DNA from: an uncultured Bacteroidales bacterium
GTDB lineage: Bacteria > Bacteroidota > Bacteroidia > Bacteroidales > VadinHA17
Direction of reading: 5' to 3'
Assembly: GCA_963825935.1 (NCBI GenBank)
Contig: CAWGUN010000013.1
Coordinates: 558,807 to 622,806 of the forward strand
Length of the DNA: 64,000 nucleotides
Shown here: positions 19,516 to 59,998 of the stretch, piece by piece
Numbering within the stretch: the first letter of the stretch is position 1
Layout: every line of letters begins with the position of its first letter
Made by a program: the position numbers and the translations under genes
Notes under the pieces: generated by a model
Told to the model about the DNA's origin: nothing
Database searches by the model: none
Seen by the model: only the letters and a program-made list of their open reading frames with translations

Positions 19516-20103
19516 ATGCTGACTGATAGCCTGAAAAAATACAGAATAATCCTTGCTTCGCGGTCTCCACGAAGGCAGCAGCTTCTCAGGGACATGGGAC
19601 TGAGGTTCGAGGTCGTAATCAGGGATTTTGTTGAAGATTATCCGGAAAACATTTCAGGTGAAAAAATTGCCTTTTACCTGGCCCGAACGAAAGCTGAAAC
19701 TTTTAAGAATGAGATATCTGACAATGAGATCGTTATAACAGCAGATACTATTGTATGGTGCAATAAAAGGGTGCTTGGAAAACCTGCTGATAAGAATGAG
19801 GCTGTCATGATGATCAGGGATCTGTCAGCAAATACTCATGAAGTAATTACCGGGGTATCCATCCTTTCAGCTTTTAAGGAAAAAACTTTTACTGAATCCA
19901 CAAAAGTGACTTTTGAAAAACTGACTGAAGAAGAAATTCTTTATTATGTAGATAAATACGAACCCTTTGATAAAGCCGGTGCTTACGGGATACAGGAATG
20001 GATAGGTTTGGCTGCATGCAGCAGGATAGAGGGATCGTATTTCAATGTTGTGGGGCTGCCGGTACAGAAGCTGTACAAGGAACTGAAAGAGTTTATAAGA
20101 TAA
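19516..20103 (+). CDS. maf: Maf-like nucleoside triphosphate pyrophosphatase
   Basis: 195 aa with ILASRSPRRQQLL, AGAYGIQ and VVGLP motifs. Confidence 0.9.
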   Translation: MLTDSLKKYRIILASRSPRRQQLLRDMGLRFEVVIRDFVEDYPENISGEKIAFYLARTKAETFKNEISDNEIVITADTIVWCNKRVLGKPADKNEAVMMIRDLSANTHEVITGVSILSAFKEKTFTESTKVTFEKLTEEEILYYVDKYEPFDKAGAYGIQEWIGLAACSRIEGSYFNVVGLPVQKLYKELKEFIR

Positions 20104-20151
20104 AAGACAAAAGACCAAGATAAAGACCCAAGACCCAAGACCCAAGAATAT
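20103..20151. repeat. Phased heptanucleotide tandem array filling the maf-peptidase spacer
   Basis: AAAGACA AAAGACC AAGATAA then AGACCCA x3 (perfect). It runs directly into the ATG at 20150. Confidence 0.9.
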
Positions 20152-44850: not shown

Positions 44851-45047
44851 AAATCGGATTTATTTGAAAATTAATATTCTGAAAGGCATTAGATTTATCG
44901 AAGTTACGACTTTGAAATAATTATTTGTATGAGAAATATCAGTTTGTTATTGGTGAAAGATTAATTTTGGATTGCTGACAAATTTAGATATTTTCAAACT
45001 TTGTTTTTCAATAATTATTAACCTGATTTTTTTATTCCATTTTTTCA

Positions 45048-45983
45048 ATGAAGCGAAATATTGCAATTGGCACTGATATAGGCGGAAGCCATATCACTTG
45101 CGCAGCTGTTGATCTTGCCACAGGTAATATCCTCAGGGGGACCTTAACCGAACGGGAAGTTGATAACCAGGCCCGGGCCAAAGTGATAATTGATATATGG
45201 ACTGAAGCACTTAAAGGGGCTTTATCAAAGGTTCCGGTCGAAAAAGTCAAGGGGATCGGATTTGCTATGCCCGGCCCCTTCGATTATGTAAAAGGCATTT
45301 GTTATATTAAAGGTGTTGCAAAATATGAGAATCTGTATGGATTCAATATCGCCGAAGCTATTTCACTCAACCTTGATGTATCCCGCGATTTTCTGATAAG
45401 GTTCATGAATGATGCATCATCTTTTGCTGTCGGCGAAGCCTGGGCAGGCAGTGCAACAGGTACAATACGGTCACTGTCAATCACACTTGGTACCGGGTTC
45501 GGGTCAGCTTTCATAAGTAATCGCATCCCAATTGTTGATGGTCCGGAAGTGCCTAAACTGGGGTGTGTTTATCATCTTCCTTATAAGGATGGGATTGCAG
45601 ATGACTATTTCTCAACCCGTTGGTTCACCGGCAGCTATAAGAAAGCTACAGGAAAAACACTGAAAGGCGTCAGAGACATTGCAGATATTGCCGGATCTGA
45701 TCGGGTCGCATCAGGCTTATTTGAAGAATTCGGCAATAATCTCGGTGCATTCCTTGCTCCGTGGCTAATTAAGTTCAAAGCTGAAATCCTGGTGATAGGC
45801 GGAAATATTTCCCATGCATATAACCTCTTTGGGAATGTCCTGGAGGAGAGCCTGAAAAGAGAAAAATGTACATGTAAAGTTGCATTGTCGACACTTAAAG
45901 AAGATGCCGCTCTTCTTGGCAGCGCATATCTTCTTGATGATACTTTCTGGAAATCAGTGCAGCATGCATTGCCACTGATGTAA
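45048..45983 (+). CDS. ROK-family sugar kinase (no N-terminal HTH)
   Basis: 311 aa starting directly with the ATPase phosphate-1 motif IGTDIGGSHITCAAVD. Confidence 0.8.
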   Translation: MKRNIAIGTDIGGSHITCAAVDLATGNILRGTLTEREVDNQARAKVIIDIWTEALKGALSKVPVEKVKGIGFAMPGPFDYVKGICYIKGVAKYENLYGFNIAEAISLNLDVSRDFLIRFMNDASSFAVGEAWAGSATGTIRSLSITLGTGFGSAFISNRIPIVDGPEVPKLGCVYHLPYKDGIADDYFSTRWFTGSYKKATGKTLKGVRDIADIAGSDRVASGLFEEFGNNLGAFLAPWLIKFKAEILVIGGNISHAYNLFGNVLEESLKREKCTCKVALSTLKEDAALLGSAYLLDDTFWKSVQHALPLM

Positions 45984-45984
45984 A

Positions 45985-46082
45985 ACCGGTAACCGGCGAC
46001 CGGCAAACGGCGACCGGCAACCGGCAACAAGCGACCAGTAAACTTAAACCTTAAACCTTAAACCTTAAACCTTAAACCTTAA
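45985..46082. repeat. Two-part phased heptanucleotide array: 8x ACCGGCR-like then 6x ACCTTAA
   Basis: The units are ACCGGTA ACCGGCG ACCGGCA AACGGCG ACCGGCA ACCGGCA ACAAGCG ACCAGTA | AACTTAA ACCTTAA x5. All 14 units are in one 7-nt register. The array starts 2 nt after the ROK stop and ends 9 nt before the MFS ATG. Confidence 0.95.
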
Positions 46083-46091
46083 ACCATTTTT

Positions 46092-47246
46092 ATGGATACT
46101 CAAAAAATCAACCTGAAAAAGATAGCCCCGGTCCTGATGGCCTTCTTTGTAATGAGCTTCTGCGACCTTGTTGGAATTAGTGTTGACATGATAAAGCCGA
46201 TCTTCAATTTAACTGATTTTCAGGCACAGCTTATCCCTACATCGGTTTTTATATGGTTCCTCATCCTTTCTGTTGGGATCGGAGTTCTTCAGAATAGAAT
46301 AGGCAAGAAAAACATGGTGAATATTGGGATGATAATTACAGCAATAGGATTATTTATCCCTTTCTTCTTTTTCCATTATTCTACATTCTTAATTGGTTTT
46401 GCTTTTCTTGGAATTGGAAACACAATTGTACAGGTTTCTGCAAATCCTTTATTAATAGATGTTGTTCCTGCAAGCCGGACATCAAGTTACCTGAGTTTTT
46501 CTCAGTTTGTGAAAGCCATCGGATCGATGATAGCGCCATGGCTGGCTACAAAGATCTTTGCGGTATACTTTAACGACTGGAAGCTTCTGTTCCTCGTGTT
46601 TGGAATTGTTTCCATCCTGTCAGTGATCTGGCTGGGTTCTGTAAAGATAGAAGAACGTAAACAGGAAAATATAAAGGTGACATTAGGATCGTCTTTCAGA
46701 CTGCTTGGGAATGGATTTATTTTATTGATGGTTCTTTCAATATTCCTTGTTGTAGGAATAGATGTTGGATTTCAGTCTAACTCCGGACAACTTTTAATGA
46801 ACCATTTCGGTATTAATGAGAAATCAGCGGTATTGGGAAGAAGTGTTTATTTTTTCGGGCGTATGCTTGGAACGTTTGCAGGTGCAATTTTGCTGACAAG
46901 AATTTCATCAAGGAAATTCTTTATGTGGACAACTGTTCTTGGAATTATTTCTCTTATAGCTGTGCTTATTATTCCGGGGCAGATCGTAGTCTGGGGATTG
47001 GTATTCATTGTCGGACTTGCAGTTGCAAACATATTCCCCATTGTATTTTCATTAACCGTGGAGCGATTTCCTGAAAGAAGTAACGAAATTTCCGGTCTTA
47101 TGATAATGGCAGTATCCGGAGGGGCAATAATTCCTCCTGTTATAGGATGGATCAGCGACAATAGCAGCATTGCGATCGGAATGACGGTTCTTGTCGCCAG
47201 TATGATTTACCTGTGGGCTGTATCTGTGTTTTGCCTGAAGAAGTAG
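46092..47246 (+). CDS. MFS sugar transporter (FucP/GluP-like)
   Basis: 384 aa and polytopic throughout. It is adjacent to the ROK kinase. Confidence 0.7.
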   Translation: MDTQKINLKKIAPVLMAFFVMSFCDLVGISVDMIKPIFNLTDFQAQLIPTSVFIWFLILSVGIGVLQNRIGKKNMVNIGMIITAIGLFIPFFFFHYSTFLIGFAFLGIGNTIVQVSANPLLIDVVPASRTSSYLSFSQFVKAIGSMIAPWLATKIFAVYFNDWKLLFLVFGIVSILSVIWLGSVKIEERKQENIKVTLGSSFRLLGNGFILLMVLSIFLVVGIDVGFQSNSGQLLMNHFGINEKSAVLGRSVYFFGRMLGTFAGAILLTRISSRKFFMWTTVLGIISLIAVLIIPGQIVVWGLVFIVGLAVANIFPIVFSLTVERFPERSNEISGLMIMAVSGGAIIPPVIGWISDNSSIAIGMTVLVASMIYLWAVSVFCLKK

Positions 47247-59931: not shown

Positions 59932-59998
59932 CAAGGACCTGCAAGACCTGCAAGACTTTTATCTTTTGTCTTTTATCTTTTGTCTTTTGTCTTTAATA
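59932..59998. repeat. Composite tandem array: ~3x GCAAGACCT (9-mer) then 5-6x TTTTRTC (7-mer)
   Basis: CAAGGACCT GCAAGACCT GCAAGAC then TTTTATC TTTTGTC TTTTATC TTTTGTC TTTTGTC TTTAATA. It lies in the divergent eda / spmAB-like spacer. Confidence 0.9.

What the first reader, a model, noticed from the sequence alone, without database searches (positions are those of the whole stretch)
45984..46091. Whole ROK-MFS intergenic spacer is a two-part, single-register heptanucleotide array (8x ACCGGCR then 6x ACCTTAA)
**Seen in the sequence.**
- Fourteen consecutive 7-nt units all start with A(C/A)C and stay in one register for 98 bp.
- The array begins 2 nt after the ROK stop and ends 9 nt before the MFS start.
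- The first half is strikingly GC-rich for this genome and contains self-complementary CCGG cores. The second half is five perfect ACCTTAA copies plus one degenerate copy.

**Established knowledge.** Heptanucleotide repeats are classic slipped-strand contingency elements. One example is the 7-bp repeats upstream of the hmw adhesin genes in Haemophilus influenzae, which tune expression by copy number.

**Inference.**
- Copy-number change here would alter the spacing or structure of the mRNA between the kinase and transporter genes, or the transporter promoter.
- Alternatively, the repeats could be a regulator-binding array.
Basis: partly seen in the sequence, partly recalled or inferred. Interest (0 to 1): 0.5.

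Follow-up and report, generated by a model that had tools for sequence, protein, structure and literature searches.

The report
Heptamer repeat spacer between two genes
The 108-base gap between a sugar-kinase gene and a sugar-transporter gene is filled by fifteen in-register 7-base repeats; it is one of about a hundred such fast-evolving repeat runs in this uncultured Bacteroidales genome, a known but still unexplained kind of bacterial repeat, and nothing found here shows it to be a dedicated genetic switch.

Summary
Window 45984-46088 holds 15 heptamers in one register, directly after the ROK stop and 3 nt before the MFS start.

It is not a locus-specific device. The genome has 105 period-7 and 49 period-8 tandem arrays, against none in a Markov-simulated genome, and 92 of the 105 are intergenic.

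The arrays fall into two positional classes:
- **Next to stop codons:** GC-rich and foldable. The ACCGGY-type family has 29 runs.
- **Next to start codons:** G-free and unstructured.

This spacer is one of each, fused in one register. The first half folds into a -23.5 kcal/mol hairpin; the second half is fully unpaired.

The orthologous spacer is about 20 nt in distant relatives and 17-23 nt in three of the four closest. In many members of the clade it carries different heptamer arrays or hairpin pairs of arrays.

Best reading: a slippage-generated heptanucleotide simple-sequence repeat (LSSR class, Mrazek 2007) whose sequence is filtered by RNA-level needs of Bacteroidota, which lack Shine-Dalgarno sites.

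Phase variation and regulator binding are untested and have no support. Genes behind such arrays are mostly housekeeping.

This scan has already met the class in many other Bacteroidales genomes. It is a new member of a known kind.

The parts
44962..44969 (+). Bacteroidetes-type -7 promoter box (TAnnTTTG) about 80 nt upstream of the ROK start; likely promoter of a ROK-MFS transcript
   Evidence: Motif scan. No such box lies in 45984-46091. Co-transcription is inferred, not shown.
45048..45983 (+). ROK-family sugar kinase gene (311 aa), stop TAA at 45981-45983. The C-terminus ...HALPLM is shared with orthologues, so the stop is ancestral.
   Evidence: Pfam PF00480, E 1.3e-20; orthologue ends.
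45984..46039 (+). First block: 8 heptamers of the ACCGGY type with a self-complementary CCGG core. 66% GC. Begins directly after the stop codon.
   Evidence: TRF period 7, 6.4 copies, score 62. One of 29 runs in the genome with CCGG at 7-nt spacing, mostly at gene 3' ends.
45986..46024 (+). Predicted RNA hairpin formed by the first block (14 pairs with internal loops)
   Evidence: MFE -23.5 kcal/mol, z = -3.2, 0 of 200 shuffles as stable. The same hairpin appears in the 136-nt context fold. No T-run follows it.
46040..46088 (+). Second block: one degenerate unit, five perfect AACCTTA units and one degenerate unit. No G, and TAA in every unit. Predicted fully unpaired as RNA.
   Evidence: TRF period 7, 6.9 copies, score 87. 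Unpaired in the fold.
46089..46091 (+). TTT linker between the last unit and the MFS start codon
46092..47246 (+). MFS sugar transporter gene (384 aa). The start is supported by alignment of orthologues from residue 1.
   Evidence: Pfam PF07690, E 3e-31.

Best explanation
**What it is.** The spacer is a non-coding intercistronic gap. It has been inflated from an ancestral spacer of about 17-25 nt, poor in G and of the AACCTTAAAC kind, to 108 nt. The inflation came from slipped-strand amplification of 7-nt units.

**Its class.** It belongs to the heptanucleotide long simple-sequence repeats. These are abundant in this genome and unevenly spread through its Bacteroidales genus.

**The single register.** The shared AACC start of both unit types points to one array whose two ends were homogenised to different variants. 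The bridging units are mixed in sequence; one step (unit 8 to unit 9) matches at only 2 of 7 positions.

**What shapes the sequence.** Which variants survive where is set at the RNA level.
- **Stop-proximal half:** belongs to a genome-wide family of GC-rich, self-complementary arrays that fold into hairpins just behind stop codons.
- **Start-proximal half:** belongs to the G-free, A/C/T-only arrays that keep the 50-60 nt ahead of a start codon free of structure. Bacteroidota ribosomes lack Shine-Dalgarno pairing and need an unstructured leader.

**Shown.**
- The repeats and their excess over chance.
- The positional and strand rules.
- The predicted fold.
- The turnover among relatives.

**Inferred.**
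- Co-transcription of ROK and MFS.
- Slippage as the generating process.
- That the structure rules reflect selection on mRNA.

Unit number surely drifts over evolutionary time, but nothing indicates a programmed on/off switch.
For: **Genome-wide class.**
- 105 period-7 and 49 period-8 arrays, against 0 in a Markov-3 simulated genome.
- 92 of the 105 are intergenic.

**Positional dichotomy.**
- 17 arrays within 15 nt upstream of a start only: sense-strand median G 0.00 and MFE 0.
- 54 arrays within 15 nt downstream of a stop only: median G 0.32, GC 0.61, MFE -0.18 kcal/mol per nt.
- Mann-Whitney p for G is 8.5e-8.

**Orientation follows transcription, not replication.**
- The purine-rich strand is the sense strand in 37 cases against 15.
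- For genes on the lagging strand the count is 12 against 3.

**Placement and family.**
- In roomy spacers, arrays abut stop codons 24 times against 6.2 expected (p 5e-8).
- CCGG recurs at 7-nt spacing in 29 runs, against 1-7 at other periods.

**Fold of this spacer.** Hairpin of -23.5 kcal/mol (z -3.2) in the first block; the second block is unpaired.

**Same two zones in 35 long orthologous spacers.**
- Last 25 nt before the ATG: median G 0.04, MFE 0.
- 5' part: median MFE -16.8; 15 of 35 have z < -2.

**Turnover.**
- The spacer is 17, 17 and 23 nt in three of the four closest relatives, and 107 nt of unrelated sequence in the fourth.
- Median 20 nt in 49 distant orthologues.
- Median 69 nt, with period-7 arrays in 30 of 55 distinct spacers, in the near clade.
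- A duplicated locus in this genome (C1 vs C8) differs by exactly one 7-nt unit, with flanks 96-100% identical.

**Register.** Related adjacent direct blocks are in register elsewhere in the genome. A relative has a three-block array in one register ahead of an aquaporin-like gene.

**Literature.**
- Heptamers are the commonest LSSR class, and polymerase slippage has been proposed (Mrazek 2007, as summarised in PMC4679880 and PMC4692102).
- Bacteroidetes lack SD sites, need unstructured leaders and tolerate a hairpin 20 nt or more upstream (PMC3155529, PMC6847099).
Against: **No expression or population data.**
- There is no transcript map, so co-transcription and any RNA-level effect are inferred.
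- No same-species sequences or reads were available, so slippage at this locus is not observed directly.

**Observations a pure tolerance filter does not explain.**
- GC-rich arrays are enriched right behind stop codons.
- The same few unit families recur at many loci and in the same block order at unrelated genes.
- Both hint at a positive function or a spreading mechanism.

**Weak points in the analysis.**
- Only 12 of 65 stop-proximal arrays have a T-rich tail, so the role of the hairpins is unknown.
- Gene models came from a crude longest-ATG-ORF caller. Stops are exact but starts are approximate.
Confidence: 0.6

Rival explanations
1. **Adaptive modular RNA element.** The two blocks are positively selected parts. 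The hairpin behind the ROK stop would be a processing, stabilising or attenuating site, for example an RNase III or exonuclease barrier. The G-free block would be a ribosome landing pad. Unit number would act as an evolutionary tuning knob for the ROK:MFS expression ratio.
For: - Strong positional and strand rules.
- The two-zone architecture is conserved in orthologous spacers despite complete sequence turnover.
- The same block vocabulary and order occur at an unrelated gene in a relative.
- A heptamer repeat in Haemophilus influenzae hmw1A acts through a 5'-UTR hairpin cut by RNase III (PMC12721329).
Against: - Three of the four closest relatives manage with a 17-23-nt spacer and no array.
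- A complete genome of the same genus has almost no arrays: 1 in 400 kb.
- The unit families are patchy in the genus.
- The arrays are therefore dispensable, and no expression data exist.
Confidence: 0.2
2. **Contingency locus.** High-frequency gain and loss of units would switch or grade transporter expression within a population.
For: - Tandem heptamers are slippage-prone. One within-genome duplicate differs by one unit.
- There is precedent in hmw (PMC12721329).
Against: - The array is intercistronic and non-coding, and no promoter box lies in it.
- Changing the number of unstructured units 9-58 nt upstream of the start should have little effect.
- Genes behind start-proximal arrays are mostly housekeeping or metabolic.
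- About 150 such arrays exist in the genome.
- The organism is a free-living wetland or sediment bacterium.
Confidence: 0.08
3. **Protein-binding array.** Each heptamer would bind one copy of a single-strand RNA/DNA-binding protein (cold-shock or S1-type), or of a DNA-binding regulator.
For: - Strict 7-nt periodicity and strand orientation.
- MacGregor 2015 proposed S1, Csp or Csr binding for TAACTGA repeats, and cites work showing that Bacillus subtilis CspB binds one heptamer per protein (PMC4679880).
Against: - Dozens of unrelated unit sequences occur in one genome.
- Orthologous spacers carry different units, so no single sequence-specific partner fits.
- No candidate gene is linked to the arrays.
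Confidence: 0.08
4. **Assembly artefact or chance periodicity.**
For: The exact unit number cannot be checked without reads. Long arrays sit at contig ends in some relatives.
Against: - The array is only about 100 bp.
- Zero arrays appear in the simulated genome.
- Independent assemblies from many projects carry arrays at the same spacer.
Confidence: 0.02

Closest known systems
Long simple sequence repeats with 5-11-nt units, heptanucleotides above all (Mrazek, Guo and Shah 2007, as summarised in PMC4679880 and PMC4692102)
   Same: - Tandem direct repeats longer than chance allows.
- Mostly intergenic, with many loci per genome.
- Period 7 dominant.
- Lineage-specific abundance.
- Slippage origin proposed.
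   Different: This case adds a clear split into GC-rich foldable arrays behind stops and G-free arrays ahead of starts. It also shows multi-block arrays in one register. I did not find those rules described in the papers I read.
TAACTGA direct repeats of marine Beggiatoaceae, some Cyanobacteria and five Bacteroidetes (MacGregor 2015, PMC4679880)
   Same: - Heptamer arrays a few nt upstream of start codons in sense orientation.
- A stop triplet in every unit.
- Relatives with shorter, repeat-free spacers.
- Other heptamers in the same spacers in some Bacteroidetes.
   Different: The unit sequence differs. Here many unit families coexist, and most arrays abut stop codons rather than starts.
GGGAATC repeats of Xanthomonas and GGGGAYT repeats of Nostoc PCC 7120 (Rehm et al. 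2015, PMC4692102); cyanobacterial STRR heptanucleotides (Calothrix PCC 7601, cited there)
   Same: - Intergenic heptamer families.
- Inverted pairs that can form stem-loops.
- Found between operon genes (pecE-pecF).
- Length and sequence vary between close species.
   Different: Those repeats are G-rich and can form G-quadruplexes. The units here are CCGG-cored or G-free, and the phylum is different.
(ATCTTTC)n repeat in the hmw1A 5'-UTR of Haemophilus influenzae (PMC12721329)
   Same: A transcribed heptamer repeat acting through mRNA hairpin structure; unit-number change by slippage.
   Different: The hmw repeat lies downstream of a promoter of an adhesin gene in a host-adapted pathogen, and its phase variation has been measured. 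Here the repeat is an intercistronic spacer of a sugar-uptake operon, one of about 150 arrays, with no switching shown.

Membership tests
Heptanucleotide LSSR (long simple sequence repeat, 5-11-nt units) | Head-to-tail direct repeats of a 5-11-nt unit, longer than expected for the genome's composition | tested here: met
   15 units in register; TRF scores 62 and 87; no such array in a Markov-3 simulated genome.
Heptanucleotide LSSR (long simple sequence repeat, 5-11-nt units) | Many loci per genome, period 7 the commonest, mostly intergenic | tested here: met
   105 arrays of period 7, against 10 of period 6 and 49 of period 8; 92 of 105 intergenic.
Heptanucleotide LSSR (long simple sequence repeat, 5-11-nt units) | Rapid change of length and sequence between related genomes | tested here: met
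   Orthologous spacers range from 17 to 155 nt and carry different units. A one-unit difference separates two copies of a duplicated locus. Variation within the species could not be tested.
Phase-variable contingency locus (hmw type) | Repeat lies in the promoter or 5'-UTR (or coding frame) of a surface or host-interaction gene | tested here: not met
   The spacer is intercistronic, lies behind ROK and has no -7 box. The gene is an MFS sugar transporter. Sister arrays precede housekeeping genes.
Phase-variable contingency locus (hmw type) | Frequent reversible unit-number change within a population, with matching change of expression | not testable with these tools
   No reads and no same-species contigs; the best relative has 92-93% MFS identity.
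Intrinsic (rho-independent) terminator | GC-rich hairpin directly followed by a T/U run | tested here: not met
   The hairpin is present but no T-run follows it. Only 12 of 65 stop-proximal arrays have a T-rich tail. The terminator scan found none in the spacer.
TAACTGA repeat family (MacGregor 2015) | Unit TAACTGA, in sense orientation within a few nt of a start codon | tested here: not met
   The unit differs. Only the position and orientation of the second block match: it ends 3-9 nt before the ATG.
Known structured RNA family (Rfam) | Match to a curated covariance model | tested here: not met
   No match at E up to 1 in 45700-46400.

The most novel reading that the evidence does not exclude
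In Bacteroidales that lack Shine-Dalgarno sites, heptamer arrays may be evolvable, modular intercistronic RNA parts. Self-complementary arrays would build hairpins immediately behind stop codons, and G-free arrays would build structure-free ribosome landing pads ahead of start codons. Slippage would then provide a built-in way to retune the relative expression of neighbouring cistrons. The shared block vocabulary and order at unrelated genes would reflect function, not accident.
Probability: 0.2. Interest if true: 0.6.

Novelty: new member of a known kind. Interest (0 to 1): 0.3.

Why it matters
On its own this spacer is ordinary for its lineage. Its value is as a clean, compact example of two rules that hold across the genome. 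Heptamer arrays behind stop codons are GC-rich and foldable. Arrays ahead of start codons contain no G and cannot fold.

Heptanucleotide repeats have been known in bacteria since about 1990 (from memory) and were catalogued in 2007, yet their cause and role remain unexplained.

The genus offers a natural comparison set. Array-rich genomes include this one, G009, G055, G059, G063 and G065. By contrast, the 400 kb sampled from G004 held only one period-7 array. Comparing them could show what makes a genome prone to 7-nt slippage.

The two-zone rule also gives a simple, testable link to translation initiation without Shine-Dalgarno pairing.

Tried and rejected
**Same-species copies, for unit-number polymorphism.**
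- The metagenome and genome scans gave nothing closer than 92-93% MFS identity.
- The polymorphism test could therefore not be done.

**Intrinsic terminator reading of the first block.** Rejected: no T-run follows, and T-rich tails are rare in the class.

**Promoter inside the spacer.** No TAnnTTTG box was found. The sigma-70 consensus scan was at background level.

**Known RNA family.** No Rfam match.

**Restriction-modification link for the CCGG cores.** CCGG is not avoided genome-wide, with observed/expected 1.19. Dropped.

**Replication-strand bias as the cause of array orientation.** Rejected: the bias is the same for genes on the lagging strand.

**Purely local origin of the AACCTTA block from the ancestral spacer.** Only partly upheld.
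- AACC-type units are enriched at this locus among relatives: 11 of 40 arrays, against 9 of 105 genome-wide.
- The same unit also occurs ahead of unrelated genes in other genomes of the genus.

**Coding potential.** All six frames are closed. The minus-strand ORF 45635-46030 starts inside the array and overlaps ROK; I treat it as spurious.

Full report
**Observation**

The window sequence shows the ROK gene (PF00480) ending with TAA at 45981-45983 and the MFS gene (PF07690) starting at 46092. The 108 nt between them parse into 15 heptamers in one register, 45984-46088, followed by TTT.

Four are exact and four have 1-2 changes; unit 7 begins ACA.
- These are followed by one degenerate and five perfect ACCTTAA units, then a last degenerate unit.
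- The first half is 66% GC. The second half is 26% GC with no G at all.
- Every reading frame on both strands is closed.
- TRF reports both halves, with scores 62 and 87.
- An order-3 Markov simulation of the whole genome gave no period-7 or period-8 array at the same threshold.

**Context in the genome**

The window lies in a 4.03-Mb, 13-contig, 40% GC genome. The closest database relatives are uncultured Bacteroidales MAGs; metagenome contigs also carry orthologues. From memory of the sample names, not checked, these come from fens, wetlands and sediments.

- TRF over the whole genome finds 105 arrays of period 7 and 49 of period 8, against 10 of period 6.
- With a crude ORF model, 92 of the 105 are intergenic, and many touch a stop or a start codon.

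The finding is therefore one member of a genome-wide class, not a device particular to this operon.

**Two positional classes**

| Arrays within 15 nt of | n | Median G | Median GC | MFE | Other |
|---|---|---|---|---|---|
| a start codon only (upstream) | 17 | 0.00 | 0.28 | 0 | A 0.48 |
| a stop codon only (downstream) | 54 | 0.32 | 0.61 | -0.18 kcal/mol per nt | |

All values are for the sense strand. The Mann-Whitney p for G is 8.5e-8.

- In co-directional spacers the purine-rich strand of heptamer arrays is the sense strand 37 times against 15. The ratio is the same for genes on the inferred lagging strand (12 against 3). The orientation therefore follows transcription, not replication.
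- In spacers with at least 60 nt of free room, arrays lie within 10 nt of a stop codon 24 times against 6.2 expected (p 5e-8). They lie within 10 nt of a start no more often than expected, 8 against 6.4.
- Runs with a CCGG core at exact 7-nt spacing number 29, against 1-7 for periods 5, 6, 8, 9 and 10. Most sit at gene 3' ends.
- Only 12 of 65 stop-proximal arrays are followed by a T-rich tail, so most are not canonical terminators.

**How this explains the two-part array**

The spacer is at once the 3' flank of ROK and the leader of MFS. It carries one array of each class in the expected order.

- As RNA, the first block folds into a hairpin at 45986-46024 (-23.5 kcal/mol, z -3.2).
- The second block is predicted to be completely unpaired.
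- No Bacteroidetes-type -7 box lies in the spacer. One lies about 80 nt upstream of ROK. MFS is therefore probably co-transcribed with ROK; this is an inference.
- Bacteroidetes lack functional Shine-Dalgarno pairing and depend on unstructured leaders.
- In Prevotella bryantii, structure at the ribosome-binding region cut expression five-fold, whereas a hairpin inserted at -21 did not (PMC3155529).
- In Flavobacterium johnsoniae, low pairing from -20 to +20 goes with high translation (PMC6847099).
- Here the hairpin ends 67 nt before the ATG, and the G-free block fills the gap between.

**Relatives**

I extracted the ROK-MFS spacer from 108 loci.

| Group | n | Spacer length | Period-7 arrays |
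|---|---|---|---|
| Distant orthologues (ROK < 60% identity) | 49 | median 20 nt | 1 |
| Near clade (ROK ≥ 70% identity) | 57 | median 69 nt (17-155) | 16 at a strict score; 30 of 55 distinct spacers at TRF score 24 |

- The four closest relatives (87-92% MFS identity) have spacers of 17, 17, 23 and 107 nt without this array.
- Units differ from genome to genome. Many spacers carry two mutually complementary arrays that form a long hairpin.
- Across 35 long spacers the same two zones recur despite complete sequence turnover. The last 25 nt have median G 0.04 and MFE 0. The 5' part has median MFE -16.8, with 15 of 35 at z < -2.
- A short AACCTTAAAC-like motif just ahead of the ATG is widespread. 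AACC-type units are enriched at this locus: 11 of 40 arrays, against 9 of 105 genome-wide. Part of the array was therefore probably seeded locally.

**Register and block structure**

- Of 13 adjacent array pairs in this genome, about seven are inverted (hairpin) pairs. The direct pairs with related units are all in register.
- A relative (L214) has a three-block array in one register. It runs from an AAGACAA type, through an AACCAGT type, to AACCTTA, and ends 12 nt before the start of a gene whose predicted N-terminus looks aquaporin-like by eye; it was not scanned.
- One array differentiating by mutation and local re-amplification explains the single register. It also means that the block vocabulary and order are not unique to this operon.

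**Instability and distribution**

- A locus duplicated in this genome (C1 and C8) differs by exactly one unit, with 96-100% identical flanks.
- 400 kb of a complete genome of the same genus holds a single period-7 array.
- The CCGG-core family is present at 7 or more sites in only 10 of 61 genus genomes and absent from 42.
- AACCTTA arrays occur in 30 of 151 genus genomes.
- The arrays are therefore dispensable and specific to sublineages.

**Against a contingency role**

Genes directly behind start-proximal arrays include HisRS, DnaE, CysD/N-like, a 2-oxoacid dehydrogenase E2, MIP, GntP and ABC permeases, a fucosidase and a peptidase.

**Comparison with known repeats**

- Heptamers are the commonest class of long simple sequence repeats. 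Mrazek et al. 2007 proposed polymerase slippage; I cite this through PMC4679880 and PMC4692102.
- Related cases are TAACTGA repeats ahead of start codons, G-rich heptamers of Xanthomonas and Nostoc, cyanobacterial STRR, and the hmw1A repeat, which acts through an RNase III-cut hairpin (PMC12721329).
- No Rfam family matches.
- Earlier notes of this scan reached the same class for other Bacteroidales genomes and for an 8-nt array in this genome.

**Verdict**

- The contingency-switch and regulator readings are unsupported.
- The best reading is a slippage-made heptamer repeat shaped by RNA-level constraints.
- It is a new member of a known kind.

Noticed in passing
Whole genome (e.g. G000 C10:178939-179040, C2:222612-222714, C13:445202-445300): A family of 8-nt arrays of the NATGGTRY type. 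It reads G-rich on the sense strand when behind stop codons (about 19 cases against 2). Its complement, of the ACCATTAY type and G-free, is found ahead of start codons.
   Followed up: partly
G000 C1:231678-231704 versus C8:1874-1907: A duplicated locus near contig ends. Its ACCGGC-type array has 4 units in one copy and 5 in the other, with flanks 96-100% identical. This is direct evidence of whole-unit change.
   Followed up: partly
L191-L210 (G004 contig 4, 400001-800000): A complete genome of the same genus has only one period-7 array in 400 kb, against about 10 expected at this genome's density. Array load is very uneven within the genus.
   Followed up: partly
L214:1480-1640 (minus strand): A three-block array in one register. 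It runs from an AAGACAA type, through an AACCAGT type, to AACCTTA, and ends 12 nt before an aquaporin-like gene. The block vocabulary and order are the same as in this window, at an unrelated gene.
   Followed up: partly
window 20097-20147 and 59956-59994: Two further heptamer arrays in the same window: an AAGACCC type with 3.6 copies and a CTTTTGT type with 5.6 copies. Both belong to the AAGACAA family that recurs across the genome.
   Followed up: no
Relatives: G093 C35 and C66 starts, G013 C127 and C181 starts, G064 C3 start: Long AACCTTA arrays sit at the very ends of contigs. Long arrays therefore break short-read assemblies, and array counts in fragmented MAGs are underestimates.
   Followed up: no
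L133, L153, L154, L161, L165, L183, L186 (ROK-MFS spacers of relatives): Pairs of mutually complementary heptamer arrays form hairpins of -30 to -51 kcal/mol between ROK and MFS. They are followed by an A-rich stretch, not a T-run. They could be processing sites.
   Followed up: partly
window 44962-44993: Divergent Bacteroidetes-type -7 boxes lie in the AT-rich gap between the malic enzyme gene (minus strand) and ROK. TAATTTTG is on the plus strand at 44962 and TAAATTTG is on the minus strand at 44986.
   Followed up: no
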